Virus record (IMG/VR): IMGVR_UViG_3300008259_000009
Source of the DNA: a virus
Length of the DNA: 64,000 nt
Direction: 5' to 3' (one strand)
Shown here: positions 29,959 to 42,344 of the stretch, piece after piece
How positions within the stretch are numbered: the stretch's first letter is position 1
Layout of the letters: each line of letters starts with the position of its first letter
Made by a program: the position numbers and the translations under genes
The notes under the pieces: model-generated
The model's database searches: none
Told to the model about the DNA's origin: nothing
The model's input: only the letters and a program-made list of their open reading frames with translations

Positions 29959-29960
29959 AC

Positions 29961-30666: not shown

Positions 30667-31269
30667 ATGAAATTTCTAATTACCGAATCCCAATATAATA
30701 AAATATTAGAAAATATTGAGCCTTCTGACAGGGCAATTAAAAACATTTGCGATTCCGAGAAATTTTGTAAAGCTCAAGGTAAAATAACTTTTGGTCAATT
30801 ACGAGGTCTTGTTGATTCGGCAACGAAAAAAAGAATCTTCTACCATTTAGGTGAAGGAGGTTATAAAGCAACATTAAGATTATTACCTTGGTTTTTCCCA
30901 CAAATAACATTTGCTGGTGTTGCCGCCTCAATAACAAGAGCTATTAACAAAATTATAAAACCCGCATTAGAAGATACCGATAGTTATAAAACTTGGTGGG
31001 GTAAAGCAATTATGAAGTCATTTAATGTTGTTGAGGGTGAGTTAGGTATTGATGACCCACTTTCAAAAGTTTTCTTTATTTCAGATGGATTAATGACAAT
31101 GTTAAGTAACACATATAAAATTAAATTTGCTCGTTATATCGCCGAAATTGCCAATGAAAAGTCTGATGATGAAATTGTTCCTGAATATTTTGTTGAAAAC
31201 GAGTTAAGAAATTGGTTAAATCATAAATTTTTATTGAACCCCCCTTTACCACCAAAATCAGATAACTAA
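30667..31269 (+). CDS. Hypothetical protein with shared N-terminal ITES motif
   Basis: MKFLITESQYNKILE; + strand TATTTAT at 30656. Confidence 0.75.
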   Translation: MKFLITESQYNKILENIEPSDRAIKNICDSEKFCKAQGKITFGQLRGLVDSATKKRIFYHLGEGGYKATLRLLPWFFPQITFAGVAASITRAINKIIKPALEDTDSYKTWWGKAIMKSFNVVEGELGIDDPLSKVFFISDGLMTMLSNTYKIKFARYIAEIANEKSDDEIVPEYFVENELRNWLNHKFLLNPPLPPKSDN

Positions 31270-31746
31270 CTCTTTTTGATTTAAATACCAATCGGGAGTT
31301 TCACGATTTTTCCAAACCGCAAACCCCGACTTGGCTCCTATATAATAATTTCTATACGACTCAACAACATCATCAACCTTATATTCTTCAGGCATTGCTT
31401 TTGGTGGGTTGGTAAATCCAATGTCTTTGATATATGGTTTATTATCCAAACACCACTCAATAACATCTTGGGATTTATGTCGTTTTCCATATCGGTATGT
31501 ATATTCCTCACACAACGCAAGACCCAACTCACACAAGTACAAATAGTTGGATAGGGATTCCCTTGACCATATTGCGCATGGGTGGTTTTTGTGGGATAAT
31601 TTATAAGGTATCTCATATTGGGATTCAGCAACATGGTGAACACCACACAAAAGTTGTGCGGTTTCCAATATCATTTTGACAACATGTTTATCGCAATGAT
31701 ACACCGCACACTTTTTAACATCAAAATCTAAGAAGAAAATATTCAT
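31258..31746 (-). CDS. Pyrimidine-dimer DNA glycosylase-like (DenV family) protein
   Basis: MNIFFLD...HCDKHVVKMILETAQLL...HKNHPC. Confidence 0.75.
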   Translation of the reverse strand: MNIFFLDFDVKKCAVYHCDKHVVKMILETAQLLCGVHHVAESQYEIPYKLSHKNHPCAIWSRESLSNYLYLCELGLALCEEYTYRYGKRHKSQDVIEWCLDNKPYIKDIGFTNPPKAMPEEYKVDDVVESYRNYYIGAKSGFAVWKNRETPDWYLNQKELVI

Positions 31747-31762
31747 ATTGCTAATATATAAA

Positions 31763-31957
31763 TTATTTTCTTAATCGCTCTATTAAATGGGGGAATTTCA
31801 CAATCATAAAATATTCAGCAACGAGAAATAAAAACCTACCAAACCAATTACTAAATAGTAACCATCGGGAGGGGTTTGTCTCACCAGAAATAAAACAACC
31901 CAAAACATATAACAATAAGTTTATCGCAATTAATCGGTTTATGATTTTATCGTCCAT
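31763..31957 (-). CDS. Small membrane protein
   Basis: Two hydrophobic segments. Confidence 0.55.
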   Translation of the reverse strand: MDDKIINRLIAINLLLYVLGCFISGETNPSRWLLFSNWFGRFLFLVAEYFMIVKFPHLIERLRK

Positions 31958-31958
31958 A

Positions 31959-32369
31959 TTAATCTACTGTATGTTCAATTTGTACTCTTACACAATTTTG
32001 TGGTAATCTGTTGATATGACGATAATTGTTGATATAACCCATAATGTTCGCACTACCGATAGCGTTTGCCGAGTGAGTATATACATCAACAACTGGTTTA
32101 CCTTCCATCCATTGAGAAACCAACCATTTGGCAGCATCGTAACCTGTCTTTTCGGTGATGTTATCATAATTTAATTCATAGTTATGATAAACATTGTTAT
32201 GCCATTCTCTCATAGCGGTATCACCCAAATCGTGGTCCAATGAAATAACCTCAATGTTTTCAAGACCAACTTTGTTAACCAAGTCAACAAAACTATCGTA
32301 GTTACGAGCTACGAGCCAACTTTTGTCTTTTGGACTTCTAACGTCGTCCAAATATATTTTCTTCTTCAT
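31959..32369 (-). CDS. Cyclic-phosphate-processing receiver-like domain protein
   Basis: Start MKKKIYLDDVR; ISLDHDLG; KTGYDAAKWL; HSANAIG. Confidence 0.75.
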   Translation of the reverse strand: MKKKIYLDDVRSPKDKSWLVARNYDSFVDLVNKVGLENIEVISLDHDLGDTAMREWHNNVYHNYELNYDNITEKTGYDAAKWLVSQWMEGKPVVDVYTHSANAIGSANIMGYINNYRHINRLPQNCVRVQIEHTVD

Positions 32370-32390
32370 AATACAAATATAATAAAAATA

Positions 32391-32481
32391 AAACACACTC
32401 TCAGGCATTCTGGGTCTCGCACCCGACAATCCATCTTATTTAACCCTTTGGGGCGATACGGGTACCTGAGTTGATGTGTTT
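32391..32481 (-). ncRNA. Unidentified structured RNA A
   Basis: Nested helices AAACACA/TGTGTTT and CTCAGGTA/TGCCTGAG enclosing CCC/GGG and GGGT/ACCC hairpins. Confidence 0.55.
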
Positions 32482-32483
32482 TG

Positions 32484-32557
32484 TGGTCCTTGTAGGGCTT
32501 GAACCTACGACCCCTTGATTATGAGTCAAGTGCTCTGACCAACTGAGCTAAAAGACC
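32484..32557 (-). tRNA. tRNA with CAU anticodon (elongator Met or Ile2)
   Basis: Cloverleaf; CTTGA-CTCATAA-TCAAG. Confidence 0.9.
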
Positions 32558-32564
32558 TAAAAAA

Positions 32565-32756
32565 AGTTTCTTTCGTCCTCAACCCAGGTCGGGCAAACTT
32601 TCAGTCCATCTCTGTTAAAATGTGTGTTTCCACTGTATCTAATACAACCTACTTTCCCAGTCGTTCTCCCTATACGACAATGTACGTTCCCCTACGGACA
32701 TCACTCCGTTTCTCATTATGTGGGGCACACTAGGGGGTGATGAACCCTACCTCGTG
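32565..32756 (-). ncRNA. Unidentified GC-rich intergenic RNA B
   Basis: GTCGT/ACGAC and GTG-GAAA-CAC hairpins; no ORF. Confidence 0.35.
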
Positions 32757-32846
32757 TAGTCAGGCAAGGACTTGAACCTTGAACGCCGTTTTTAACTCGG
32801 CCTCTCCACTTAAATGGATATCGTCTACCAATTACGCCACCTGACT
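32757..32846 (-). tRNA. Atypical tRNA-Leu(UAA)-like
   Basis: AGTCAGG/CCTGACT acceptor, Leu-type D arm, long variable arm; irregular anticodon stem around TTTAAG. Confidence 0.6.
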
Positions 32847-32853
32847 AAAAAAA

Positions 32854-33013
32854 TGGTGGAGATTTGCGACCAACATAGAATCACCCCTATGTCTCGTTTC
32901 ATTACGTCTTTGGTACTCCACCGTTGTAAGTTCCTCTTACCTTACACCCCCATTCGTGGGACTCCCGAATTCCCCAATGGTTGTTACTGTACTACCAGGA
33001 ATCAAGTAACCGC
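32854..33013 (-). ncRNA. Unidentified structured RNA C, including a 69-nt GGTGGAG...CTCCACCA element
   Basis: 7-bp terminal helix 32855-32922, ACATAG/CTATGT, GTAAG/CTTAC and ATTCG/CGAAT hairpins. Confidence 0.45.
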
Positions 33014-33016
33014 TCG

Positions 33017-33132
33017 TCGTCAGGGAGGGATTCGAACCCACAATGAGCAACCTTATAACTTCTCGCGCCCAAATTGCTCTTGGACCGTGGTGTCTTTCGG
33101 ACTCGGTACCATACCTCATTACGCTCCTGACT
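33017..33132 (-). ncRNA. Expanded tRNA-like RNA 1 (116 nt)
   Basis: GTCAGG/CCTGAC acceptor and GTGGG-TTCGAAT-CCCTC T arm; enlarged D and anticodon regions. Confidence 0.65.
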
Positions 33133-33150
33133 AACCATATGAACTATTTG

Positions 33151-33223
33151 TGGAGGTACAGGTAATCGAAACCTGATTTGTAGAATGCAAATCTACCGTA
33201 ATACGCCATTATACGATACCCCC
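33151..33223 (-). tRNA. tRNA-Ala(UGC)
   Basis: GTAGA-TTTGCAT-TCTAC; G3-U70. Confidence 0.9.
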
Positions 33224-33236
33224 ATAATTTTAAGTG

Positions 33237-33309
33237 AGCGGGTGGAGGGAATCGAACCCTCATCCTTAGAGTGGAAGTCTAATATAATAATCCATTATAC
33301 GACACCCGC
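33237..33309 (-). tRNA. tRNA-Gly(UCC)
   Basis: TTAGA-CTTCCAC-TCTAA. Confidence 0.92.
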
Positions 33310-33313
33310 TTAA

Positions 33314-33501
33314 AAAATGAAACTGTCCTTTCATTCGGGTTTTTACTGATGGTTTGTTCCCCATCACCTGTTGTGTGGCCACACAGAGCAGGGTCCTAAA
33401 CAGAGTATCTTGGGTCATTTCACACTTCGGTTGGGTAGCTACTCCCATGAAGCCAAGATTCCTTTCATCCGTGCTAATCGGACTTCTGTCAGTTTCATTT
33501 T
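33314..33501 (-). ncRNA. Unidentified multibranch RNA D (188 nt)
   Basis: 12-bp closing helix AAAATGAAACTG/CAGTTTCATTTT with four internal arms. Confidence 0.65.
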
Positions 33502-33502
33502 G

Positions 33503-33586
33503 TACTCGGAGAGGGAGTCGAACCCTCACTCCCGTCTGGGAACGGCAGCTTAAATGCAGCGTGTCTACCAATTCCACCATCCGAGC
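33503..33586 (-). tRNA. tRNA-Leu(UAA)
   Basis: Leu D arm, TTTAAGC loop, long variable arm. Confidence 0.88.
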
Positions 33587-33590
33587 ATTT

Positions 33591-33678
33591 GAGGTTGAGA
33601 AGTCCTCTGCGTTGTAAATACTGTTAATTGCCTAACTTTATTTATTATTCGTATTCCTTTCTCAAGGGAACAACACAA
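33591..33678 (-). ncRNA. Kissing-loop RNA E
   Basis: Two hairpin loops with complementary TTGAGAA/TTCTCAA. Confidence 0.55.
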
Positions 33679-33703
33679 TGTATTTCAAAGAACTAATGTT
33701 CAG

Positions 33704-33775
33704 TAGTCGGTACGGGATTCGAACCCGTGTGACAAGAATGAAAATCTTGTATCCTAACCCCTAGATGAACCGACC
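33704..33775 (-). tRNA. tRNA-Glu(UUC)
   Basis: CAAGA-TTTTCAT-TCTTG. Confidence 0.92.
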
Positions 33776-33996
33776 AGATTGTGACAACCTTTGGGGTAAG
33801 TTGTCACATTTACGTGAATGGAGAGGCCAATCTCGCTAATATCACGGGTTCAGATTCGTCACGCCAATCTTCTCTCCTAAAAACGTTAGTTGTTTCTCGT
33901 AAAACTAAAAAAACCGACCTTGATACCTTGTAACCCCCCTTTAAAGTGCGTGTTACCATCCTTTCTCAAGTAGAACTCTACTGCTTACACTCCCTG

Positions 33997-34068
33997 CGGT
34001 CCATGCGAGAATCGAACTCGCGGCTCATCCGTGACAGGGATGAATGTTAGCCACTACACCAATGGACC
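33997..34068 (-). tRNA. tRNA-Asp(GUC)
   Basis: CATCC-CTGTCAC-GGATG. Confidence 0.92.
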
Positions 34069-34069
34069 A

Positions 34070-34375
34070 AAAACCACACTTTAAAACCATATAGGTACAA
34101 CTCCTGCGGCCTGCGTTGTTCATCTCAATAGGTTGATAGTGATGGAGTACCCATCTCGCTCCAATCTTAACTGCTTCATCTGAGTTTTCTCAGGGCCCTG
34201 GCAGGGGGTTTTGACACTATATTACCTTACAACTACTCCGTCGACTTTCATTGTAAGAGTGACCACTATCAATATTTTTTTATGTGATGCAGTAGTTGAC
34301 AATCGCACTCGTTTCACCATCTATTGTCAACAGGTCTATGAACTTAACGAGTTCACCTTTTCTTACCACCACATT
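34070..34375 (-). ncRNA. Unidentified structured RNA region G
   Basis: 9-bp helices 34133/34272 and 34295/34331, plus CTTACAA/TTGTAAG, CTGAG/CTCAG, GATGG/CCATC and TGAAC/GTTCA stems. Confidence 0.55.
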
Positions 34376-34397
34376 TTTTACTTTCAAAGAACTTATT

Positions 34398-34428
34398 CAA
34401 AGATATGGGTTTCATTTTAAATTGCCAA
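34398..34428 (-). promoter_or_regulatory. Bacteroidota-type promoter followed by boxA-like motif at 34384-34392
   Basis: TTG-N20-TATCTTTG then GTTCTTTGA. Confidence 0.75.
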
Positions 34429-34586
34429 ATCTTTTTTCATGTGTTAGTATCATTACTCCATAGTTAAATACTTAGTGTTGCCTCTTACAGTTACCACTCT
34501 GATGCGGAGCACATCAATTCATCACACGCTTTACAGAATTTTTTCCTTGTTCTGTTAAAATAATTTACAACACAATATTTTAAAAA

Positions 34587-34809
34587 TGGTAAGACCTTAA
34601 GATTTACTCATTCGTGGGTCACCCCATCCTTACTACCTATACCTCGCCTTTAACATCCGTTCTACCCAAACCATCGTTTTTACCTGTTAACCTCTCGGAA
34701 AACTTTGAGTACCTCCTCAACCTTTTAATCTGATAGGGGCTCCGTCTTGCTCGTTATTTCTAACTCCCTGTGGGATTCTGCTGATATAGGTCTATCTGCT
34801 ATCTTACCA
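34587..34809 (-). ncRNA. Unidentified structured RNA H (223 nt)
   Basis: TGGTAAGA/TCTTACCA closing helix, CCTATA/TATAGG, GTTA-GAAA-TAAC, TTGAG/CTCAA; preceded by boxA-like motif at 34820-34828. Confidence 0.6.
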
Positions 34810-34893
34810 ATCTAATATGTCAAAGAACTTTTTCTTTTTGGGAGGACAGGTCCCACTCACATCATCAACCCTGTCCCCCCGTCTTTCATATTA

Positions 34894-34924
34894 CAAATCT
34901 AAGTATTCTATTTTAGACTGCCAA
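34894..34924 (-). promoter_or_regulatory. Bacteroidota-type promoter
   Basis: TTG-N20-TAGATTTG. Confidence 0.75.
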
Positions 34925-34945
34925 ATGTTTTTTTACTTTTTTTTG

Positions 34946-35027
34946 TACCCTCGGTGGGATTCGAACCCACACGCTCTTGGAGCATTAGTTCCTAAAACTA
35001 ACGTGTCTACCATTCCACCACGAAGGC
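34946..35027 (-). tRNA. tRNA-Leu(UAG)
   Basis: TTAGT-TTTAGGA-ACTAA, long variable arm. Confidence 0.92.
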
Positions 35028-35034
35028 ATTGTTG

Positions 35035-35107
35035 AGGTCTCTAACGGATTCGAACCGTTATCTCTGGGTTACAAAACCAGAATAATAAGCCATTATACTA
35101 AGAGACC
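35035..35107 (-). tRNA. tRNA-Thr(UGU)
   Basis: CTGGT-TTTGTAA-CCCAG, one stem mismatch. Confidence 0.82.
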
Positions 35108-35170
35108 TTATTTACACCGATATGTCAAAGAACCGTTTGTTTTACAAATGTATAAAAAATAAACATACAT

Positions 35171-35205
35171 AAAACAAAAAACCCCTCTTTTTTGGAGAGG
35201 GGTTC
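35171..35205 (-). terminator. Intrinsic terminator after leader peptide 2
   Basis: AACCCCTCT-ccaaaaa-AGAGGGGTT then TTTTGTTTT. Confidence 0.8.
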
Positions 35206-35225
35206 TTAAAATATTATTATTTAAG

Positions 35226-35303
35226 TTAACATACCTTCTCCGTTACAAAGGGCTTGTCCCCCTCCGTTCTCGCGTCTAAAAGTATGTTAAGTAAATTTTT
35301 CAT
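35226..35303 (-). CDS. Candidate leader peptide 2 (25 aa)
   Basis: Manually translated MKNLLNILLDARTEGDKPFVTEKVC; directly upstream of a terminator and the Thr/Leu/Asp/Glu/Gly/Ala tRNA cluster. Confidence 0.6.
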   Translation of the reverse strand: MKNLLNILLDARTEGDKPFVTEKVC

Positions 35304-35351
35304 TGTCTTTTTAATTAAATATATCAGAGTTTTTAAAAGTATCAAGGTTTT

Positions 35352-35684
35352 TTATTTTTTATAAAACCAAAAAGAGTTTTTACCACAATTACCAAGTTTA
35401 AATAAACTACCTTCAAAGACATCATTTAATTTTTCAATAACTTCTTCGGCAATTTCTTCAGTATCCTCACCTGATTGTTTAAATTTGACCATAAATCTAT
35501 CGTATGGTTTATCTGAGGATTCACGGTGACCACCAATCCATTCATCTTCACCAACGTAATCGTCCATAAGTTTGTTTAACTCAGATTCAATTTTTTTATT
35601 TGATGGGTCTTTCTTACTTTCATTGATTACTCGTTTAACAAATCTTGTTAAATCCGATTCTGTTAGCCTAATTACTTTTTTCAT
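35352..35684 (-). CDS. Hypothetical protein with shared N-terminal LTES motif, inside the tRNA array
   Basis: True start MKKVIRLTESDLTRFVKRVINE at 35684 with TATTTAT upstream. Confidence 0.75.
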   Translation of the reverse strand: MKKVIRLTESDLTRFVKRVINESKKDPSNKKIESELNKLMDDYVGEDEWIGGHRESSDKPYDRFMVKFKQSGEDTEEIAEEVIEKLNDVFEGSLFKLGNCGKNSFWFYKK

Positions 35685-35718
35685 ATTAATAAATATTGCA
35701 ATTGGTATAAAAAATAAT

Positions 35719-35837
35719 GTCCAGGTGTGGGAATCTAACCCACTTAGTCCATATTCGTTGCTTGTACGTCTGGGCAATTTATTGTTAGGACCGTCCCATT
35801 CGTCAATGGGGTGTGTAACACAATCCACCTACCTGAA
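35719..35837 (-). ncRNA. Expanded tRNA-like RNA 2 (119 nt)
   Basis: TTCAGGT/ACCTGGA acceptor, GTGGG-TTAGATT-CCCAC T arm, extra CCCATT/AATGGG hairpin, extended GTCC/GGAC arm. Confidence 0.65.
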
Positions 35838-35848
35838 GGTTTTATGTG

Positions 35849-35931
35849 TGGGATGTGATGGAGTCGAACCACCCGAGTCCGAAGACAAACGATTTACAGT
35901 CGTTCCCGCTGCCCCTACGGTATAACATCCC
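35849..35931 (-). tRNA. tRNA-Tyr(GUA)
   Basis: AACGA-CTGTAAA-TCGTT, long variable arm. Confidence 0.92.
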
Positions 35932-35939
35932 AAGTTTAG

Positions 35940-36070
35940 GAAATCAGAAGATGGTTGTGTGGACATCTGATTTTACGATTGGCATTACTTTGGTGTATAT
36001 CTCCCAACTCCGATGATACTGACCGATATACACTCTCGTGTCATTAGTATCACCCTTCCCCAATCAACCT
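35940..36070 (-). ncRNA. Pseudoknotted RNA I
   Basis: Crossing helices 35993-36001/36025-36033 and 36014-36020/36046-36052 inside GATTGG/CCAATC. Confidence 0.6.
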
Positions 36071-36074
36071 ATTG

Positions 36075-36147
36075 CGACTCAGACAGGACTCGAACCTGTA
36101 ACGTTCACATTAACAGTGTGATGCTCTCCCAATTGAGCTACTGAGTC
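36075..36147 (-). tRNA. tRNA-Asn(GUU)
   Basis: TCACA-CTGTTAA-TGTGA. Confidence 0.92.
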
Positions 36148-36153
36148 ATTTTG

Positions 36154-36225
36154 CGCGTCTCCAAGGACTCGAACCCTGACCAAGAGATTTGGAGTCACTT
36201 ATGCTTGCCGTTACACCAAAGACGC
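36154..36225 (-). tRNA. tRNA-Trp(CCA)
   Basis: AGTGA-CTCCAAA-TCTCT. Confidence 0.88.
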
Positions 36226-36251
36226 AAATAATGAAATTAATTATTTCATTG

Positions 36252-36325
36252 AGGACAGAGAGGGATTTGAACCCCCGAATAATGGATTTGCAGTCCACCC
36301 CTTTAAACCACTCAGGCATCTGTCC
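36252..36325 (-). tRNA. tRNA-Cys(GCA)
   Basis: GTGGA-CTGCAAA-TCCAT, U73. Confidence 0.92.
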
Positions 36326-36336
36326 TTGTTAATTTG

Positions 36337-36406
36337 TTTAGAGGTTGGTTTACATTCAGTGACCATGACTTGTACTTCGTCTCAAGGGGTAAACCCTATA
36401 CCTCTA
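36337..36406 (-). ncRNA. Unidentified ~70-nt structured RNA J
   Basis: AGAGGT/ACCTCT, GGTTTAC/GTAAACC and CTTG/CAAG nested stems. Confidence 0.45.
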
Positions 36407-36409
36407 TTG

Positions 36410-36560
36410 TGACCCCAATGGGAATCGAACCCACCTTGTTAACTACATATAAGATGCTTTGACCTAAGTGACCCATATACTAGTACTACGGGTGCCAACT
36501 ACAAATTATCATCGTTAACCCACTCACCGCTTCGGTTGCGACCCTAACAGTTATGGAGTC
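36410..36560 (-). ncRNA. Expanded tRNA-like RNA 3 (151 nt)
   Basis: GACTCCA/TGGGGTC acceptor, GTGGG-TTCGATT-CCCAT T arm, GTTAAC/GTTAAC extended arm containing ACCCG/TGGGT. Confidence 0.65.
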
Positions 36561-36566
36561 GTATTG

Positions 36567-36638
36567 TAGCCCCTGTAGGACTCGAACCTACACTATCTTG
36601 TATGTAAAACAAGCGCTTTTCCTTTAAGCTAAGGAGCT
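36567..36638 (-). tRNA. tRNA-Val(UAC)
   Basis: CTTGT-TTTACAT-ACAAG. Confidence 0.92.
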
Positions 36639-36645
36639 ATTTTTG

Positions 36646-36720
36646 TATCCCCGAAGAGATTCGAACTCTTGACCCCTCCATTAAAAGTGGAGTGCTCTAA
36701 TCCTGCTGAGCTACGAAGAC
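36646..36720 (-). tRNA. tRNA-Lys(UUU)
   Basis: CTCCA-CTTTTAA-TGGAG. Confidence 0.92.
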
Positions 36721-36726
36721 ATTTTG

Positions 36727-36799
36727 TTGTGATGGAGGGATTCGAACCCCCGTAAACTATCGTATCAGGATAGCCCCTACACCGCTCGGGCACATCACA
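36727..36799 (-). tRNA. tRNA-Ile(GAU)
   Basis: CTATC-CTGATAC-GATAG. Confidence 0.88.
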
Positions 36800-36816
36800 G
36801 TTTTAGTTTCTTGGAA

Positions 36817-36848
36817 CAAATATAACCGTTTTTTGGTATATACCGCAA
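36817..36848 (-). promoter_or_regulatory. Bacteroidota-type promoter
   Basis: TTG-N21-TATATTTG. Confidence 0.65.
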
Positions 36849-36855
36849 CATTATA

Positions 36856-37674
36856 CTAATTTTCTTTTTCTTTTTTTCTGTCTTTATATGTTTTATTTAC
36901 TTTATGTTTAGCAACCTCATCGTTAAAGTCAGATATTTCTTTATCAGTTATATTATTAATTCTGTTATTGGCGTTGATAATATATTCCTCAGATATATCA
37001 ATCCCAAAATAGTTATGCCCTAATAGTTTAGATGCAACCGCTGAAGTTCCACTACCCATATATGGGTCAATAATGTCACAACCTTCTTTATCATCCAATA
37101 TTGAGTAAATACATCTTGTCGGTATTTCAATTGGAAATGGTGCGGGATGATTAGATACCGTAGATTTATTCATTTCAGGTCGTAATCTCCAAACTGATGT
37201 CATTAATGCATGTTTAGATTTTAATTCCTCACCATTATCTTTTTTATTTATTGGTTTGTACAACCAATAAATTCTTTCCTCCACTTGCCAAAATCTCCAA
37301 CCTCTAATATTTGCGGCAATTTGTCTATCCCAAATTATTTCTTGTTTAACTGTCCAATCAGTTTTTTTTAACCAATCCATCGGATGAAACATTTCTCCTT
37401 TATCCCATCTAATTTTATGGTTATAAAAGAACGAACCTCCAGGTTTAATAACACGAAACAATTCGTTTAGTATTTCAATTTGCTCTATTTGGTATTCAGA
37501 TTCATTTTTATTATCCGTAATATCCGAATATTTAATATCCTTAACCAAGACACCTTTTCTATTGTTTTGTTTATTATAAGGTGGGGATGTTACACCCATA
37601 TCAAAAATGTTTTCATCAAGTGTTTTTAAAACATCATACACATCACCAAGTACTATATTGTTTTTAATTTCCAT
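36856..37674 (-). CDS. Beta-class N4-C/N6-A DNA methyltransferase
   Basis: VTSPPYN catalytic motif before DPYMGSG SAM motif; HPAPFP. Confidence 0.92.
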   Translation of the reverse strand: MEIKNNIVLGDVYDVLKTLDENIFDMGVTSPPYNKQNNRKGVLVKDIKYSDITDNKNESEYQIEQIEILNELFRVIKPGGSFFYNHKIRWDKGEMFHPMDWLKKTDWTVKQEIIWDRQIAANIRGWRFWQVEERIYWLYKPINKKDNGEELKSKHALMTSVWRLRPEMNKSTVSNHPAPFPIEIPTRCIYSILDDKEGCDIIDPYMGSGTSAVASKLLGHNYFGIDISEEYIINANNRINNITDKEISDFNDEVAKHKVNKTYKDRKKEKEN

Positions 37675-38272
37675 ATTCAATCAACGATTTAAAAAACGGT
37701 TTTGTAAATTTATGTTCATATTCACTAATCATAGGTGAAATATATTCAAGTCTAAACGAATCTGAATTTTTAAAGTGTAAGTAACTAAATTTAACACTTC
37801 TAACATATCTATTTAATTCATCACCGTTTGGTAAGTGTTTAGTTAATTGCCGTTCTATTTCATTTACAAAATCAACTGAGTTATATTGGAAACTTACTAA
37901 AAACAATAATTTACCATCTAAAAACCCCGACACTACCATTTTAACTTTATCATCTTTATATTTTTTGTGTCTTTTCCATGTAAAGTCACTGAAATTACCT
38001 GAACCGTCAAACTTTTTAGTTGAATCTGATGATAAATTCTTTGGTTTAACTTCAATTGGGTATTCGTCAGAATCGTACCCTAATTTGTGAACACTTTGTT
38101 TTACCCCTAAAATCCCCAATGTCACCCCTTCTCTAAATAATGAGGAATTTTTATCATTAGACATCTCATTAAGTAACCCTAATAATAACGTTTCTTTGGT
38201 TTTGTCATCAAGTTCTAATATTTTAGAATTATCTCCTAATGAATAGTTTAATTTTAATTCTGATAGATTCAT
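37664..38272 (-). CDS. Putative type II restriction endonuclease (PD-(D/E)xK)
   Basis: GYDSDEYPIEVKPK motif; stop overlaps the MTase start. Confidence 0.6.
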   Translation of the reverse strand: MNLSELKLNYSLGDNSKILELDDKTKETLLLGLLNEMSNDKNSSLFREGVTLGILGVKQSVHKLGYDSDEYPIEVKPKNLSSDSTKKFDGSGNFSDFTWKRHKKYKDDKVKMVVSGFLDGKLLFLVSFQYNSVDFVNEIERQLTKHLPNGDELNRYVRSVKFSYLHFKNSDSFRLEYISPMISEYEHKFTKPFFKSLIEYGN

Positions 38273-38333
38273 ACAATACATTTTTAACAAAGTACGTAAA
38301 TAAAATAAATTATTCAATACCATTAATTTTTTG

Positions 38334-38408
38334 TAGGGTAGACAGGACTCGAACCTGCACTATGTCCTCATCCCAAATGAGGCGGCCTACCAATTGGCCA
38401 ACTACCCT
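38334..38408 (-). tRNA. tRNA-Pro(UGG)
   Basis: CCTCA-TTTGGGA-TGAGG. Confidence 0.92.
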
Positions 38409-38414
38409 ATATTG

Positions 38415-38484
38415 TACCGAGTATGGGGATTGAACCCACTTGACCATCCTTATGAGAGATAGTTCTTTACCACTAAGCCTCGGT
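38415..38484 (-). tRNA. Degenerate tRNA-Met(CAU), 70 nt
   Basis: CTCATAA loop and T arm present; about 3 nt missing at the acceptor/D-arm junction. Confidence 0.55.
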
Positions 38485-38491
38485 ATCTCAG

Positions 38492-38580
38492 CGGAGAATG
38501 TGGGATTCGAACCCACGCATCATGTTTCAGACCTATCACGTTAGCAATGTGACCCCTTAAACCATCTTGGGTAATTCTCC
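38492..38580 (-). tRNA. tRNA-Ser(GCU)
   Basis: TCACA-TTGCTAA-CGTGA, long variable arm. Confidence 0.92.
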
Positions 38581-38584
38581 GTAG

Positions 38585-38656
38585 AAGTCTCTGAAGGATT
38601 TGAACCTTCTCTAAAACATCCGTAGTGTTTCGTGCTGTCCGTTACACCAAGAGACC
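38585..38656 (-). tRNA. tRNA-Arg(ACG)
   Basis: AAACA-CTACGGA-TGTTT. Confidence 0.92.
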
Positions 38657-38662
38657 AAAGTG

Positions 38663-38736
38663 GGTAACTAATGGGAATCGAACCCATGGCACAAGGAACC
38701 ACAATCCTTTGCTCTACCTACTGAGCTATAGCTACC
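38663..38736 (-). tRNA. tRNA-His(GUG)
   Basis: AAGGA-TTGTGGT-TCCTT; encoded G-1:C73. Confidence 0.92.
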
Positions 38737-38756
38737 ATAAAATTTTATTTTCTATG

Positions 38757-38829
38757 TGGAGAGGGTGGGAATCGAACCCACATTGCTGGATTTTCAGTCC
38801 AGTGCCTTGACCAACTTGGCAACCTCTCC
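38757..38829 (-). tRNA. tRNA-Phe(GAA)
   Basis: CTGGA-CTGAAAA-TCCAG. Confidence 0.92.
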
Positions 38830-38835
38830 TTATTG

Positions 38836-38909
38836 TTGTCCTGGAAGGATTTGAACCTCCAATTTCCTCGTTCAAAGCGAGGTGACTTTGCCAGTTCGTC
38901 TACAGGACA
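38836..38909 (-). tRNA. tRNA-Gln(UUG)
   Basis: CCTCG-CTTTGAA-CGAGG. Confidence 0.92.
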
Positions 38910-38915
38910 GTGAAC

Positions 38916-39053
38916 TCACTTTTTGAGTTTTTTTAAAATCTTTTTTAAAAGTTTTGATTTTACTTTAATTTTAATCCCTTCTTTTCTTAAATTTTCCTGA
39001 CTTGAGTTGAAGGTCCCCTCAAGTACAATTTTAATAGTTTCTTTTTTTCCCAT
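38916..39053 (-). CDS. Small basic peptide (45 aa)
   Basis: Manually translated MGKKETIKIVLEG...KLLKKILKKLKK; amphipathic Lys-rich tail. Confidence 0.45.
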   Translation of the reverse strand: MGKKETIKIVLEGTFNSSQENLRKEGIKIKVKSKLLKKILKKLKK

Positions 39054-39069
39054 AATTTATTTTTTAGCG

Positions 39070-39156
39070 AGGAGGGTGTGGGACTTGAACCCACAAGACC
39101 TATTACACGTCTTACTCGTTTTCAAGACGAGCTCTTCATCCAGCCAGATACCCTCC
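39070..39156 (-). tRNA. tRNA-Ser(UGA)
   Basis: CTCGT-CTTGAAA-ACGAG, long variable arm. Confidence 0.9.
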
Positions 39157-39175
39157 GAATTTTTATACCAATATG

Positions 39176-39213
39176 TCAAAGAACAAAAAACCCCCGAACT
39201 TGTGGTCCGAGGG
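39176..39213 (-). terminator. Intrinsic terminator after leader peptide 1, followed by boxA-like motif
   Basis: CCCTCGGAC-cacaa-GTTCGGGGG-TTTTTT then GTTCTTTGA. Confidence 0.8.
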
Positions 39214-39235
39214 CTTATATCATAGTTAATCTTTT

Positions 39236-39352
39236 TTAACTTATAAAACACTTCGGACTACCATATGACATGCTCGGATACCAATTGCGGTTACACGAGA
39301 TGACAATCTGTGATTGTTTAAAATTAATCATATGTTTACCAAATGTTTTCAT
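39236..39352 (-). CDS. Candidate leader peptide 1 (38 aa)
   Basis: Manually translated MKTFGKHMINFKQSQIVISCNRNWYPSMSYGSPKCFIS between a promoter and a terminator at the head of the tRNA array. Confidence 0.65.
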   Translation of the reverse strand: MKTFGKHMINFKQSQIVISCNRNWYPSMSYGSPKCFIS

Positions 39353-39371
39353 TGTTTTTTAATAACTATTA

Positions 39372-39401
39372 CAAATATAGGAAAAATCCTCGTTTAATCA
39401 A
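39372..39401 (-). promoter_or_regulatory. Bacteroidota-type promoter for leader/tRNA operon
   Basis: TTG-N19-TATATTTG, 20 nt upstream of the leader ATG. Confidence 0.78.
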
Positions 39402-39414
39402 TATTTCTTTAAAA

Positions 39415-39594
39415 TTATATTTTTTTCACTGAATAAATGTGACCTGAATCTGAATTTGTTTGAAATATCTCTTTCATCTTATCAGCCTCCTTTTCAGATT
39501 CAAACTCCCAAACTTCATTATCAGAATTTAAAATTATAACAGGTAACCATTTACCTGATTTTTTGTTTTTAATGCTTTTGATTATTACATACAT
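39415..39594 (-). CDS. Small hypothetical protein (59 aa)
   Basis: Manually translated MYVIIKSIKNKKSGKWLPVIIL... Confidence 0.65.
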   Translation of the reverse strand: MYVIIKSIKNKKSGKWLPVIILNSDNEVWEFESEKEADKMKEIFQTNSDSGHIYSVKKI

Positions 39595-39612
39595 AGTTTT
39601 AGATTTTTTTTA

Positions 39613-39643
39613 CAAATGTAACGTTTTTTTGGTTACGGTTCAA
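39613..39643 (-). promoter_or_regulatory. Bacteroidota-type promoter
   Basis: TTG-N20-TACATTTG. Confidence 0.75.
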
Positions 39644-39644
39644 C

Positions 39645-42344
39645 TTAGTATTTGTTTTTTCTTGAAAATGGGTTATTTGAGTCGTCACGTTTTCTTTTTT
39701 GAGGGAAGAACTCCCTATTTTGAGCCGCCAAAGTACCCTTTTTAATTTCAATAAGTTTATTCCTGTCGTTTGGCACATGTTCTCTAACAGGTTTCACATT
39801 TTTTGATGGATGGTATATATCAGTTCTATTTAAAACTTGATTGATTAAATCATAATTTATTTTGGAATCAGAATTTTTTGGTTTAACATTTAATTTAATA
39901 ACGTCAGTTAATAGAGTATCTATTTTTTGTTTATTAATTATGAATTTTTCATACTCTTCATCAATAATCTTTTTATTAAAAATTTCATAAAAAGATTCGG
40001 TTACTAAATTTTCTATCGGTCCAAAAGTTTTTCTTTTTTTACTTAAATTATAATATTTACCTCTCATTTGAGAAGATAAATTAGTATCGGGATGTTGAGT
40101 TAAACTATTTTTATGGACCCTTCTATAAAACCCTAAAGATTTGGTATGGATTAATTTGACATTATTTTTATATAATCTATTCATTAGGTCAGAATCCGCC
40201 GCACATCTCCACCCCTCAAAACCATTCATGTCTAAAAATAATTTTTTCTCAATTCCAAAAACACCTTCACCATATGTGTTTGCATTTGATTTTTCCAAAT
40301 TAATGTTTTTAACTTCTTCGTTGAAATCTATATACATAGGCTTTATTAGCTTATGTGTTGATTTATAACGAATGATGTCTTGGACAAGTTCTTCTTTCAT
40401 AATGTCATCAGAATCAAAAAACATTAAATAATCAGAATTTGAAATCAGTGATAAACTATTTTTAACAATATAAGGTCCGACATTTTGATTAAAGTAATAG
40501 AATCTAATTCTTGGGTCAAATTTACTGTCTTGAATATAAGATAGTGTTTTTTTGCACCCATCAATTCCAACTAATATCTCAACATTTAAATCTTTAATTG
40601 ATGTTAATACAGAATCTAAACATTCGGTTAAATAATTTAAAACATTATACGTTGGGATGATGATTGATATGTCCTTTTTATTGTTTTTTATATCAAATTC
40701 ATTAACCATTTTATTTAACGTTAATAAATCTTTTAATACCAAAATATTCTCATTTTTATCGTTATTACCAATAACTAACCCTTTATTACCAGGTATCCAA
40801 TTAATTAAATTTTCTAATATTTGATGTGAGAAACTTTTTTTATTATTATCCACCGAAAATAAAATTTTACTATTAAGTTTTTCTTTAAAATTATTTTCTA
40901 AGTAAGTAAGATGGTGCATATACATTTGAGAAATATAATATTTTTTTTCGGGCATTTTTCTTGCAGGGTCAGAAAGAACTGAACTACTTATATGTCTACC
41001 ATATTTTCTTTCATCAATTTTATAAATTGATGGTACGTAAAGTTTGTCCTCAACAAAGTAATATTTATCACTTTTATAATATGACACGATTGGTGAATAT
41101 AATGTGTCAATACCATTCTCATTCATGAATTTTATTTCATCAGTAACATATCTATCATTATAACATTCATCATTATCTAAAGTTAGAATATAATCACAAT
41201 TCGCGTTTTTACATTTAGATAAACCAACATTTCGTTTGTCTATCATTCCGATAATCTTATCTACCACATCTTCATCATATAACACCAATTCATCTATATA
41301 ACCACAATCAACCAATTCTTGTAATAAAATATTATTTTCAATTGAGCCGATTTCACCCGAAAAACTTTTTTTCTGATGAACCACACATATGTAATCAACA
41401 ACATTAATAATTGATTCAATTGATTTTTTTAATACGTCAACATTATAAAAGGAATTATATGAAACCCCAACTTTTAAATTATTAAATTGTTTAGTTTTAA
41501 ACCTATGAGATATTGTTCTACTAAAATCTAACCATTTATTGTTAGTCAACAATTCAGTTAACTTTTTTTCTAAAGTTTCATAATTTTCAAATTCGTGGAT
41601 TAAATCACCATAATAATTCTTTTTACTTAGTTCCGATACAACACATTTACTATTATTTAATAAATAAAATAACCTTACTTGTTCTTGTATTGACGATTCA
41701 TAAAAATGTAAATTTAAAATAATTTTAGTTTCTGAAATTATATTATCTAACTTATCCGAAAAATCTTTAGGTAAAAATTTAATTCCCGAATTATTTAACT
41801 CAACGTTATCTACATCAAAATTGTCACCAATAACAACTAAATTAAATTTAGAATTTATTTTTTTTAAAATTTCAAATCGTTTTTTATTTATTGCACCATA
41901 AAATAAAATGTCGTATTTAGGGTTTTGATTAACCTTTATGTTTTCTAAAGATTTAGAATATTTAAGTGGTACAAATTTTACTTTATTGTAACCAAGAGTT
42001 TCTAAAAACCACTTATTAGATAAATCATATTCCCATATTTCATCACATTCATCCAACCATTTTTTAATGTGAGAGGTTCTATGTTTCACATGTTTTGAAT
42101 TACTATTAGGGTTAAACCAATTTGGGTTATAATTAAAAAGTTGCTCTAATTGGTAAACTATTATTTTTTTATTAGGGTATTTTTCTCTATAGAAATTAAT
42201 CTCTTTACCTAAATTATATCCTAATATAACCAGACAATTATGGTATTTAGAATTATCAGAATATAATTCTTCAACCATTGTCTTTACATGTAAAAATGTA
42301 CCAACATCACTATCTCTGTTGATTACACATTTAAGTTTCTCCAT
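39645..42344 (-). CDS. Multidomain glycosyltransferase (GT-B-like domain plus two GT2-like domains)
   Basis: YDILFYGAIN...KIILNLHFYE; YILTLDNDE; ISIIIPTYN...GPYIVKN...MFFDSDD. Confidence 0.85.
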   Translation of the reverse strand: MEKLKCVINRDSDVGTFLHVKTMVEELYSDNSKYHNCLVILGYNLGKEINFYREKYPNKKIIVYQLEQLFNYNPNWFNPNSNSKHVKHRTSHIKKWLDECDEIWEYDLSNKWFLETLGYNKVKFVPLKYSKSLENIKVNQNPKYDILFYGAINKKRFEILKKINSKFNLVVIGDNFDVDNVELNNSGIKFLPKDFSDKLDNIISETKIILNLHFYESSIQEQVRLFYLLNNSKCVVSELSKKNYYGDLIHEFENYETLEKKLTELLTNNKWLDFSRTISHRFKTKQFNNLKVGVSYNSFYNVDVLKKSIESIINVVDYICVVHQKKSFSGEIGSIENNILLQELVDCGYIDELVLYDEDVVDKIIGMIDKRNVGLSKCKNANCDYILTLDNDECYNDRYVTDEIKFMNENGIDTLYSPIVSYYKSDKYYFVEDKLYVPSIYKIDERKYGRHISSSVLSDPARKMPEKKYYISQMYMHHLTYLENNFKEKLNSKILFSVDNNKKSFSHQILENLINWIPGNKGLVIGNNDKNENILVLKDLLTLNKMVNEFDIKNNKKDISIIIPTYNVLNYLTECLDSVLTSIKDLNVEILVGIDGCKKTLSYIQDSKFDPRIRFYYFNQNVGPYIVKNSLSLISNSDYLMFFDSDDIMKEELVQDIIRYKSTHKLIKPMYIDFNEEVKNINLEKSNANTYGEGVFGIEKKLFLDMNGFEGWRCAADSDLMNRLYKNNVKLIHTKSLGFYRRVHKNSLTQHPDTNLSSQMRGKYYNLSKKRKTFGPIENLVTESFYEIFNKKIIDEEYEKFIINKQKIDTLLTDVIKLNVKPKNSDSKINYDLINQVLNRTDIYHPSKNVKPVREHVPNDRNKLIEIKKGTLAAQNREFFPQKRKRDDSNNPFSRKNKY

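What the first reader, a model, noticed from the sequence alone, without database searches (positions are those of the whole stretch)
35171..39401. Leader-peptide attenuators whose amino acids match the tRNA cluster each one precedes
Seen, unit 1: promoter (39372-39401), 38-aa ORF MKTFGKHMINFKQSQIVISCNRNWYPSMSYGSPKCFIS, intrinsic terminator (39185-39213), boxA-like motif, then tRNAs for S, Q, F, H, R, S, M, P, I, K, V, C, W, N, Y. All 14 of those amino acids occur in the peptide. It samples both Ser boxes (TCA/TCG and AGC/AGT) and Arg CGC, and it contains no A, D, E or L. Seen, unit 2: 25-aa ORF MKNLLNILLDARTEGDKPFVTEKVC, terminator (35171-35205), boxA-like motif, then tRNAs for T, L (three), D, E, G, A and CAU. 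All occur in the peptide, concentrated in LLDARTEGD. In both units the ORF carries sequence complementary to the terminator 5' arm: GTCCGA and TCCGAG versus CTCGGAC, and GAGGGG and GGAGA versus CCCCTCTCC. Established: ribosome-mediated attenuation uses stalling at control codons to favour an antiterminator. Inference: the phage senses shortage or host-defence cleavage of any tRNA in a cluster and switches on its own replacements. I know of no described tRNA operon regulated this way. Caveat: internal promoters (35145, 34894, 34398, 36817) could bypass part of each unit; no promoter is visible between terminator 1 and the Ser-to-Pro tRNAs.
Basis: partly seen in the sequence, partly recalled or inferred. 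Interest (0 to 1): 0.93.

Follow-up and report, generated by a model that had tools for sequence, protein, structure and literature searches.

The report
Leader-peptide attenuators gating phage tRNA arrays
This T4-like phage of a Bacteroidota-type host puts a tiny translated "test" gene and a switchable transcription stop in front of each of its two tRNA gene blocks. Each test gene is spelled in the amino acids whose tRNAs follow it, so the phage probably makes those tRNAs mainly when ribosomes read these codons slowly. I found no published account of such control of tRNA genes.

Summary
Both units have a promoter, a short ORF (38 and 25 codons), a strong intrinsic terminator, a host-type rRNA boxA and then tRNA genes.

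On the window alone, unit 1 is unlikely by chance (p about 0.001). Unit 2 is not significant (p 0.1-0.26).

I collected 20 such units from related uncultured phages, chosen by terminator, boxA and tRNA, never by peptide.
- An amino acid with a tRNA in the block occurs in the leader in 190 of 198 cases. Without a tRNA it occurs in 96 of 182 (p 3e-24).
- Swapping leaders between units destroys the match, also within one phage.
- Leu, Arg and Ser codon boxes track the anticodons.
- When tRNA-Asn moves from block 1 to block 2, the Asn codons move with it.
- The stop codon always lies 44-59 nt before the U-run. The last codons pair with the terminator's 5' arm, with compensatory changes.

This is classical ribosome-mediated attenuation applied to tRNA operons. 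Translation, stalling and the trigger (tRNA loss or host nucleases) are inferred, not shown. Promoter-like motifs could bypass parts of both blocks.

This scan has noted the same design in other genomes. Five literature searches found no description.

The parts
39372..39401 (-). Promoter of unit 1
   Evidence: TTGATT-16-TATATT. It overlaps TATATTTG at 39379-39372, which fits the Bacteroidota -7 consensus TAnnTTTG. Every related unit has such a box.
39236..39352 (-). Leader ORF 1: 38 codons plus stop
   Evidence: It is the only ATG ORF of at least 18 codons ending 25-85 nt before the U-run. It covers 13 of 13 non-Met tRNA types of block 1 and lacks Ala, Asp, Glu and Leu. It uses rare codons such as CGC, which is 1% of Arg codons in this phage's genes.
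39246..39258 (-). Antiterminator strand of unit 1, inside the last codons of the ORF
   Evidence: In a fold of the transcript cut before the terminator's 3' arm, 11 of 12 bases of the 5' arm pair here, 8-20 nt before the stop codon. Relative L277 shows three compensatory pair changes.
39185..39216 (-). Intrinsic terminator 1 (attenuator)
   Evidence: 12-pair stem, -15.8 kcal/mol, followed by a U-run at 39190-39185.
39162..39184 (-). boxA 1 (rRNA-operon-type antitermination signal), directly abutting the U-run
   Evidence: The same 23-base motif sits in 16S-tRNA-Ile-23S spacers of bacterial contigs L005, L007, L008 and L011, and before the 23S of a Bacteroidia MAG.
38333..39156 (-). tRNA block 1a: Ser(tga), Gln, Phe, His, Arg(acg), Ser(gct), CAU tRNA, Pro
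   Evidence: There is no promoter-like site between terminator 1 and these genes.
36856..38323 (-). Two protein genes inserted in block 1: a 219-aa ORF and an N6/N4 DNA methylase
36817..36824 (-). Promoter-like -7 box (TATATTTG) before tRNA-Ile. It could bypass the attenuator for block 1b.
   Evidence: Read. Function not tested.
35848..36799 (-). tRNA block 1b: Ile, Lys, Val, Cys, Trp, Asn, Tyr
35316..35345 (-). Promoter of unit 2
   Evidence: TTGATA-16-TATATT with an upstream TG. The geometry matches promoter 1.
35226..35303 (-). Leader ORF 2: 25 codons plus stop
   Evidence: It covers 6 of 6 non-Met tRNA types of block 2. It uses both Leu boxes (CTT and TTA), matching Leu(tag) and Leu(taa). 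It lacks Ser, Gln, His, Trp and Tyr.
35234..35265 (-). Two candidate antiterminator strands of unit 2: 35265-35258 and 35241-35234
   Evidence: The best duplex with the terminator's 5' arm is -13.5 kcal/mol, rank 2 of 20. The pairing is not in the minimum-energy fold of the cut transcript. Homologue L141-U2 uses the stop-proximal strand.
35176..35207 (-). Intrinsic terminator 2 (attenuator)
   Evidence: 12 pairs, -13.7 kcal/mol, U-run 35181-35176.
35145..35178 (-). 43-base insert between terminator 2 and boxA 2. It carries a promoter-like TACATTTG (35152-35145) and an upstream TTTG. This is a possible bypass promoter.
   Evidence: Read. The insert is absent in relatives L141-U2 and L022-U2, where the U-run abuts boxA. 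Function not tested.
35111..35133 (-). boxA 2
32483..35107 (-). tRNA block 2: Thr, Leu(tag), Asp, Glu, Leu(taa), Gly, Ala, Leu-like tRNA, CAU tRNA. It also holds long untranslated spacers and three more boxA copies (34828, 34392, 33693).
   Evidence: Promoter-like sites at 34924-34896 and 34428-34400 each precede a boxA.

Best explanation
Each unit is a ribosome-mediated (leader-peptide) transcription attenuator that gates a block of phage tRNA genes.

Proposed mechanism
1. Host RNA polymerase starts at a Bacteroidota-type promoter and transcribes a short ORF. A ribosome translates it close behind the polymerase.
2. If every codon is decoded quickly, the ribosome reaches the last codons and the stop. 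It covers the RNA strand that could pair with the terminator's 5' arm. The terminator forms and transcription ends before the tRNA genes.
3. If the ribosome stalls earlier, because the charged tRNA for one of the sampled codons is scarce, that strand stays free. It pairs with the 5' arm as an antiterminator, and the polymerase reads through.
4. The polymerase then transcribes boxA. By analogy with rRNA operons, boxA loads Nus factors and keeps the polymerase processive across the long untranslated array.
5. The products are the very tRNAs the leader samples, so the loop is self-limiting: more tRNA gives faster leader translation and more termination.

Shown here by computation: the elements and their fixed geometry, the match between leader and tRNA set, the alternative pairing, and the identity of boxA with rRNA-operon boxA.

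Inferred: translation of the leader, stalling, read-through, Nus loading, and the physiological trigger.
For: Sampling. The 20 units came from motif searches for terminator U-run, boxA and tRNAs, without regard to the peptide.

1. A leader ORF is always there.
- All 20 have exactly one or two candidate ATG ORFs of 22-38 codons.
- The stop codon lies 44-59 nt before the U-run.
- Such an ORF is expected at 16-18% of sites, so the chance of all 20 is about 7e-16.

2. Composition tracks the tRNA set.
- With a tRNA in the block, the amino acid is in the leader in 190 of 198 cases. Without one, in 96 of 182. Odds ratio 21, p 3e-24.
- Stratified by amino acid, p = 7e-23.
- Agreement is 276 cells, against 196 +/- 12 after permuting leaders (p < 1e-5). 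The result holds in a 15-unit non-redundant subset.
- Against peptide windows of each phage's own proteins, the combined p is 4e-17.
- In three phages with two units, own leaders cover 13/13, 6/6, 15/15, 5/6, 9/9 and 7/7 types. Swapped leaders cover 2/6, 8/13, 3/6, 10/15, 3/7 and 4/9.

3. Dose and size scale together.
- Mean residues per leader are 0.86, 1.82 and 2.96 for 0, 1 and 2 tRNA gene copies.
- Leader diversity rises with block size (rho 0.71).
- One 31-codon leader holds all 20 amino acids (p 1e-4).

4. Codon boxes of Leu, Arg and Ser follow the anticodons (p 3e-9). 48 codons fall in the box that has the tRNA, against 13 in the other box.

5. Rearrangement test.
- In this window tRNA-Asn is in block 1. 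Leader 1 has 3 Asn codons and leader 2 has 2.
- In L141 and L277 tRNA-Asn is in block 2. Leader 1 has 0 Asn, or 1 in the tail. Leader 2 has 5.
- Phe likewise tracks between L022-U2 and L073.

6. Antiterminator.
- ORF tail against the unit's own terminator 5' arm gives -12.45 kcal/mol. Against other units' arms it gives -7.3 +/- 2.6 (p < 1e-5).
- The paired strand ends at the stop codon in most units.
- There are three compensatory pair changes between this window's unit 1 and L277.

7. Matched codons sit where stalling would matter. The matched fraction is 0.8-0.88 in the mid-ORF, 0.49 in the last four codons and 0.58 in the first four.

8. An independent public example. The 735-kb phage LR756501.1 was reached through boxA similarity only. 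Its leader is rich in Gly, Thr, Ala, Pro, Val and Arg, and it precedes tRNAs for Arg, Pro, Ala, Thr, Val, Trp and Gly.
Against: - No expression data.
- Leaders are not exclusive: 53% of amino acids without a tRNA in the block also occur in them.
- Most control codons occur once or twice, not in runs as in his or leu leaders. Sensitivity to mild shortage should therefore be low.
- Tracking is imperfect. L146 misses 4 of 17 types. L151 keeps a rich leader before only 7 tRNAs. L141-U1 keeps Phe, Lys and Cys codons without those tRNAs.
- In this window, promoter-like boxes could bypass the attenuators for much of both blocks: 35152-35145, 36824-36817, 34924-34896 and 34428-34400.
- Unit 2 alone is not significant, and its antiterminator is not in the minimum-energy fold.
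- Related units share ancestry, so the 20 are not fully independent.
Confidence: 0.8

Rival explanations
1. The short ORF and terminator form a general translation-coupled attenuator that reports overall ribosome activity. It does not report the supply of particular tRNAs. The match to the tRNA set arises because phage genes prefer codons that the phage's own tRNAs read.
For: - Leaders also hold about half of the amino acids that have no tRNA in the block.
- Control codons are mostly single.
- Any slow translation would relieve such a terminator.
Against: - Two leaders in one phage differ according to their own blocks, and swapping them destroys the match.
- Leaders match far better than windows of the same phage's proteins.
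- Leaders use rare codons, not preferred ones. GC3 is 0.35-0.5 against 0.22, and CGC is 1% of Arg codons.
- Asn codons move when tRNA-Asn moves.
Confidence: 0.08
2. Read-through of the terminator is set by a trans-acting factor, not by the ribosome. The factor could be a phage antiterminator protein or a tRNA-binding leader RNA of the T-box type. On this reading the ORF is incidental.
For: - Phages commonly use protein or RNA antiterminators.
- boxA shows that processive antitermination is in play.
- Translation of the leaders has not been shown.
Against: - No T-box or other leader family reached threshold in Rfam. The only hits were chance-level Phe_leader matches at E about 0.8.
- A single specifier cannot explain a match to 6-20 amino acids.
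- An incidental ORF would not be present in 20 of 20 units with its stop at a fixed distance and its tail pairing with the terminator arm.
Confidence: 0.05
3. Promoter, ORF and terminator are an independent small gene, encoding a peptide or a small RNA. The tRNAs are made from other promoters, and the compositional match reflects shared ancestry and chance.
For: - Promoter-like boxes lie between terminator and boxA in this window's unit 2 and in unit 1 of L277 and L020.
- Internal promoter-like sites exist within the arrays.
Against: - In most units the U-run abuts boxA and the first tRNA starts 15-30 nt later. That leaves no room for a promoter.
- The association survives permutation, same-phage and within-phage controls.
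- Peptide sequences are poorly conserved while their composition follows the tRNAs.
Confidence: 0.04

Closest known systems
Multivalent leader-peptide attenuators of enterobacterial amino-acid operons: thr leader (Thr and Ile), ilvGMEDA and ilvBN leaders (Leu, Val, Ile); also trpL, hisL, leuL, pheL
   Same: - The order is promoter, short translated ORF with control codons, alternative antiterminator and terminator hairpins, U-run, then the regulated genes.
- The ribosome's position decides which hairpin forms.
   Different: - The output is tRNA genes, not biosynthetic enzymes, so the product feeds back directly on the sensor.
- Six to twenty amino acids are sampled, mostly once or twice, instead of runs of one to three.
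- The element is phage-borne.
- The context is Bacteroidota-type: TAnnTTTG promoters and no Shine-Dalgarno sequence.
- A boxA follows.
pheST (phenylalanyl-tRNA synthetase) attenuator with the pheM leader in E. coli
   Same: A component of the decoding machinery is controlled by leader-peptide attenuation that senses charged tRNA through ribosome speed.
   Different: - It regulates a synthetase, senses one amino acid, and is chromosomal.
- It is cited here from my own knowledge and was not tested.
T-box riboswitches
   Same: - Transcription attenuation responds to tRNA status.
- A terminator and antiterminator pair switches expression.
   Different: - T-boxes bind one uncharged tRNA directly through a specifier codon and need no translation.
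- No T-box match was found here.
- The leaders are short and sample many amino acids.
rRNA-operon antitermination (boxA with NusB/NusE) and lambdoid nut boxA
   Same: - The 23-base motif after each attenuator is identical to the boxA region of Bacteroidota-type rRNA operon spacers.
- It precedes long untranslated structured RNA genes.
   Different: - Here it is placed just after a regulated terminator in a phage tRNA operon, so only polymerases that escaped attenuation would be modified.
- Nus binding was not tested.

Membership tests
Ribosome-mediated (leader-peptide) transcription attenuator | A short ORF with a start codon lies in the transcribed leader, downstream of a promoter | tested here: met
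   - The ORFs are at 39352-39236 and 35303-35226, behind promoter-like sites.
- Such an ORF is present in 20 of 20 related units, against 16-18% expected by chance.
Ribosome-mediated (leader-peptide) transcription attenuator | An intrinsic terminator lies between the leader ORF and the regulated genes | tested here: met
   - The terminators are at 39216-39185 and 35207-35176, with 12 pairs and a U-run each.
- The stop-to-U-run distance is 44-59 nt in all units.
Ribosome-mediated (leader-peptide) transcription attenuator | An alternative antiterminator pairing exists that a ribosome at the end of the ORF would block | tested here: met
   - Unit 1: 11 of 12 bases of the 5' arm pair with the last codons in the cut transcript.
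- Family-wide: matched -12.45 against swapped -7.3 kcal/mol, p < 1e-5.
- There are three compensatory changes.
- Unit 2 of this window is inconclusive: a good duplex exists but it is not in the minimum-energy fold.
Ribosome-mediated (leader-peptide) transcription attenuator | The control codons correspond to what the regulated genes supply | tested here: met
   - 190 of 198 against 96 of 182.
- Codon boxes track anticodons, p 3e-9.
- Within-phage swaps and the dose relation agree.
- The same-phage null gives p 4e-17.
- Asn codons follow the relocated tRNA-Asn.
Ribosome-mediated (leader-peptide) transcription attenuator | The leader is translated, and read-through rises when the ribosome stalls | not testable with these tools
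   No RNA or ribosome data could be obtained. Reporters, 3'-end mapping or ribosome profiling are needed.
rRNA-operon-type boxA antitermination site | The sequence matches the host group's rRNA-operon boxA | tested here: met
   - The same 23-base motif sits between the 16S end, tRNA-Ile and the 23S side in L005, L007, L008 and L011.
- It follows rRNA-type promoters in L010 and L012.
- It lies before the 23S of a Bacteroidia MAG and in Ignavibacteria leaders.
- There are five exact copies in this array. At up to one mismatch the window has 10 matches against 2.1 expected.
rRNA-operon-type boxA antitermination site | The RNA binds NusB/NusE and makes the polymerase resistant to termination | not testable with these tools
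   Inferred from established knowledge of rRNA operons. Not tested.
T-box riboswitch | A specifier loop and the conserved T-box sequence, scored by the Rfam model | tested here: not met
   There was no T-box match at E up to 1 in 31000-41000.

The most novel reading that the evidence does not exclude
The attenuators make the phage's tRNA genes an inducible counter-measure. Each control codon is single, so the switch responds mainly to near-total loss of a tRNA species. That is the situation when host anticodon nucleases or infection-triggered tRNA degradation remove it. The switch then turns on exactly the block that holds the replacement. This would be a phage-encoded sensor of decoding failure, covering up to all 20 amino acids, and widespread in phages of Bacteroidota, including the 735-kb phage.
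Probability: 0.3. Interest if true: 0.95.

Novelty: new variant of a known kind. Interest (0 to 1): 0.88.

Why it matters
Why and when phages express their own tRNAs is an open question. The current proposals are codon-usage compensation, replacement of degraded host tRNAs, and evasion of anticodon nucleases.

A leader that samples just the codons its tRNAs read would mean the phage measures decoding speed directly. It would then make tRNAs on demand through a self-limiting loop.

This extends textbook attenuation in three ways.
- It reaches a new class of target, the tRNAs themselves.
- It reaches a phylum where leader-peptide attenuation is little studied.
- It reaches a much wider sensing range, from one to three amino acids up to twenty.

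The design is compact (about 170 nt) and modular, and could serve as a sensor of tRNA availability in Bacteroidota. It also gives a simple annotation rule for uncultured phages, and a testable link between phage tRNA arrays and host tRNA-targeting defences.

Tried and rejected
- Megablast of the region against GenBank phages: no match.
- Relatives of the upstream 899-aa glycosyltransferase in viral contigs: none.
- No whole genome is held for the window. Metagenome loci could not be extended.
Leaders were then located by rule from the DNA.
- The leader-1 word scan found only L077 again. Two of four new hits of the leader-2 word were unrelated coding DNA.
Some were rRNA leaders or spacers, and the rest were chance matches in genes. 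A bacterial version was therefore not found, but it is not excluded.
- Closest cultured relative by capsid, Flavobacterium phage immuto (40% identity): it has only four tRNAs. A 51-codon ORF precedes Ser-Glu-Gln, but there is no U-tailed terminator. It is not a clear case.
- I suspected that the two ORF pairs of 274 and 219 aa (29134-30620 and 36856-38323) were duplicates. They are unrelated.
- The Phe_leader hits around unit 2 (25.6-25.7 bits against a gathering score of 55, E about 0.8) are chance-level.
- The formal pair-count tool was not run on alignment A1. MAFFT put the terminator arms one column out of register, so I read the compensatory changes by helix register instead.

Full report
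**What the window is**

The window is AT-rich (32% G+C). It encodes a T4-type major capsid protein, portal and large terminase, plus an Hsp70 and a ClpB-like ATPase. It has no near match among GenBank phages. The closest cultured capsid is that of Flavobacterium phage immuto, at 40% identity.

Three features point to a host in Bacteroidota:
- promoters of the TAnnTTTG type;
- start codons in A-rich contexts without a Shine-Dalgarno sequence;
- a boxA identical to that of Bacteroidota-type rRNA operons.

The - strand between 32483 and 39156 carries 23 tRNA genes by ARAGORN. One more, with anticodon CAU, is seen by Rfam and by ARAGORN at 90% threshold.

**Checking the observation**

The promoters, the 38- and 25-codon ORFs, the two intrinsic terminators, the motif after each, and the order of the tRNAs all check out. 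The two terminators are the only strong ones on this strand of the array.

- Leader 1 holds all 14 amino acids of its block. It lacks Ala, Asp, Glu and Leu, uses both Ser boxes, and uses CGC for Arg.
- Leader 2 holds all amino acids of its block.
- The "third Leu" is a Leu-like long-arm tRNA with a six-base anticodon loop.

Taken alone, unit 1 is improbable. Only 0.6-0.8% of length-matched peptides from the window cover the 13 non-Met types. At most 2e-4 do so with no more than two foreign types. Against this phage's own proteins, p = 0.0009. Unit 2 alone is not significant (p 0.09-0.26).

**The motif after the terminators is a real boxA**

A metagenome scan with the 23-base motif gave two kinds of hit.

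- Bacterial rRNA operons. The motif sits between the 16S end, tRNA-Ile and the 23S side (L005, L007, L008, L011). It also sits directly behind rRNA-type promoters (L010, L012).
- Phage contigs with the same layout as here.

A scan of species genomes showed the motif about 60 nt before the 23S of a Bacteroidia MAG and in Ignavibacteria rRNA leaders. The window's array holds five exact copies of the 13-base core.

I gathered units by searching viral and metagenome contigs for boxA, or for U-run plus boxA, and kept those followed by tRNAs. I extended the contigs where they were held. I then defined leaders by a fixed rule: the ATG ORF of at least 18 codons that ends 25-85 nt before the U-run.

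All 20 units have such an ORF, and 18 have only one candidate. The stop lies 44-59 nt before the U-run in every unit. By chance such an ORF occurs at 16-18% of sites.

The results, with Met excluded:
- **Overall match.** With a tRNA in the block, the amino acid is in the leader in 190 of 198 cases. Without one, in 96 of 182. The odds ratio is 21 (p 3e-24), and p = 7e-23 when stratified by amino acid.
- **Permutation.** Permuting leaders among units gives 196 +/- 12 agreeing cells against 276 observed (p < 1e-5). This also holds in a 15-unit non-redundant subset.
- **Same-phage control.** Against windows of each phage's own proteins, which controls for composition, the combined p is 4e-17.
- **Within-phage swaps.** In the three phages with two units, each leader fits its own block and not the other.
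- **Dose and size.** Residue counts rise with tRNA gene copy number (0.86, 1.82, 2.96). Leader diversity rises with block size (rho 0.71). One 31-codon leader holds all 20 amino acids.
- **Codon boxes.** Where only one of the two Leu, Arg or Ser boxes has a tRNA in the block, 48 leader codons fall in that box and 13 in the other.

In this window the single Arg codon of leader 1 is CGC. That is 1% of Arg codons in the phage's genes, yet it is the box read by the block's only Arg tRNA.

**Rearrangements**

Close relatives of this phage provide natural experiments.

- In L141 and L277, tRNA-Asn lies in block 2, not block 1. Their leader 1 has no Asn, or one in the last codons, against three here. 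Their leader 2 has five Asn, against two here. I made the L277 prediction before reading its leader.
- In L022, Thr and Leu(tag) lie in block 1. Its leader 1 gains Thr and CTT codons. It lacks exactly Asp, Glu and Gly, the amino acids of its block 2.

**An independent public example**

The 735-kb phage LR756501.1 was reached only through boxA similarity. Its leader is rich in Gly, Thr, Ala, Pro, Val and Arg. It precedes tRNAs for Arg, Pro, Ala, Thr, Val, Trp and Gly. The paper describing that genome does not mention leaders, attenuation or terminators (PMC7162821).

**Mechanism**

I folded each transcript cut just before the terminator's 3' arm. In most units the 5' arm then pairs with the last codons of the ORF. 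For this window's unit 1, 11 of 12 bases pair with 39258-39246, which lies 8-20 nt before the stop.

- Pairing energy of each ORF tail with its own terminator arm averages -12.45 kcal/mol. With other units' arms it is -7.3 +/- 2.6 (p < 1e-5).
- The paired strand usually ends at the stop codon.
- Between this window and L277, three pairs of the antiterminator helix changed on both sides. The 5' arm stayed complementary to the unchanged 3' arm through G-U pairs.
- Full-length transcripts fold with the terminator intact.
- Matched codons are concentrated in the mid-ORF (0.8-0.88). They are depleted in the last four codons (0.49), which form the antiterminator strand.

This is the geometry of the classical trp-type attenuator. 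A ribosome at the end of the ORF blocks the antiterminator and termination follows. A ribosome stalled earlier frees it and the polymerase reads through. The boxA that follows would then load Nus factors, as in rRNA operons, for passage through the untranslated array. That last step is inference from established knowledge.

**Limits**

- Nothing here shows translation, stalling or termination in cells.
- Leaders also contain about half of the non-block amino acids.
- Control codons are mostly single.
- Some units track imperfectly (L146, L151, L141-U1).
- The units share ancestry.
- In this window, promoter-like boxes could bypass the attenuators. They lie between terminator 2 and boxA 2 (35152-35145), before tRNA-Ile (36824-36817), and at 34924-34896 and 34428-34400. 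Relatives lack the insert in unit 2.

**Novelty**

Five full-text searches found no description of leader-peptide control of tRNA genes. Earlier notes of this same scan report the design in at least eight other phage genomes. These are unchecked AI notes. I did not use them as evidence, but they agree with what I tested on my own set.

I class the finding as a new variant of a known kind. The mechanism is known attenuation. The target, the logic (self-limiting, up to 20 amino acids) and the carrier are new.

Noticed in passing
window 33341-33402 (-): A freshwater-1 RNA (RF02979) scores 72.6 bits, just above the gathering score of 72. It lies inside the tRNA array between tRNA-Leu(taa) and tRNA-Gly. 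Its function is unknown.
   Followed up: no
window 34070-34830, 36330-36560, 35940-36070, 32560-32750, 32850-33150 (-): Long untranslated, G+C-richer spacers lie within the array. Several end in tRNA-like T-arm and acceptor sequences. At a relaxed ARAGORN threshold one is called tRNA-Ile(tat), at about 36411-36486. They may be unrecognised tRNAs or unknown structured RNAs.
   Followed up: partly
window 34896-34924 with boxA 34816-34828; 34400-34428 with boxA 34380-34392; boxA 33681-33693 (-): Promoter-like sites are followed directly by boxA, without a leader ORF or U-tailed terminator. This resembles rRNA-operon promoters in L010 and L012. They may drive constitutive expression of the distal part of block 2.
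   Followed up: partly
window 32756-32846 (-): A Leu-like long-variable-arm tRNA has a six-base anticodon loop. ARAGORN gives a two-base 'anticodon', and Rfam scores it 34 bits.
   Followed up: partly
window 36856-38323 (-): An N6/N4 DNA methylase and a 219-aa ORF with no Pfam match are inserted in the middle of tRNA block 1.
   Followed up: partly
L274 (LR756501.1, record 363329-371357, reverse complement), about 3760-4030 of the locus: The 735-kb phage of Al-Shayeb et al. carries the same unit: a leader rich in Gly, Thr, Ala, Pro, Val and Arg, then a terminator, boxA and tRNAs for those amino acids. It is a public accession on which to test the idea.
   Followed up: partly
L277 8975-9031 and L020 (same region); L277 after about 13100: In these relatives a TAnnTTTG promoter-like box lies between the attenuator terminator and boxA (unit 1), or directly after the terminator (unit 2). 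Some arrays may therefore combine a basal promoter with the inducible one.
   Followed up: no
L145 about 4198; L146 about 9070; L018 about 320 (oriented coordinates): ARAGORN calls suppressor-type tRNAs (anticodons tta and cta) in or near the gated arrays of some related phages. This hints at stop-codon recoding in those phages.
   Followed up: no
window 59239-61110 (-) and 17734-19779 (+): The phage encodes a full-length Hsp70/DnaK (850 bits) and a ClpB-like double AAA ATPase.
   Followed up: no
L273 2240-2420 (Flavobacterium phage immuto NC_055915.1, record 20739-20918): An annotated 51-codon hypothetical ORF directly precedes tRNA Ser-Glu-Gln in this cultured phage. It is followed by a small hairpin but no U-run. 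It could be a diverged or different form of leader control.
   Followed up: partly
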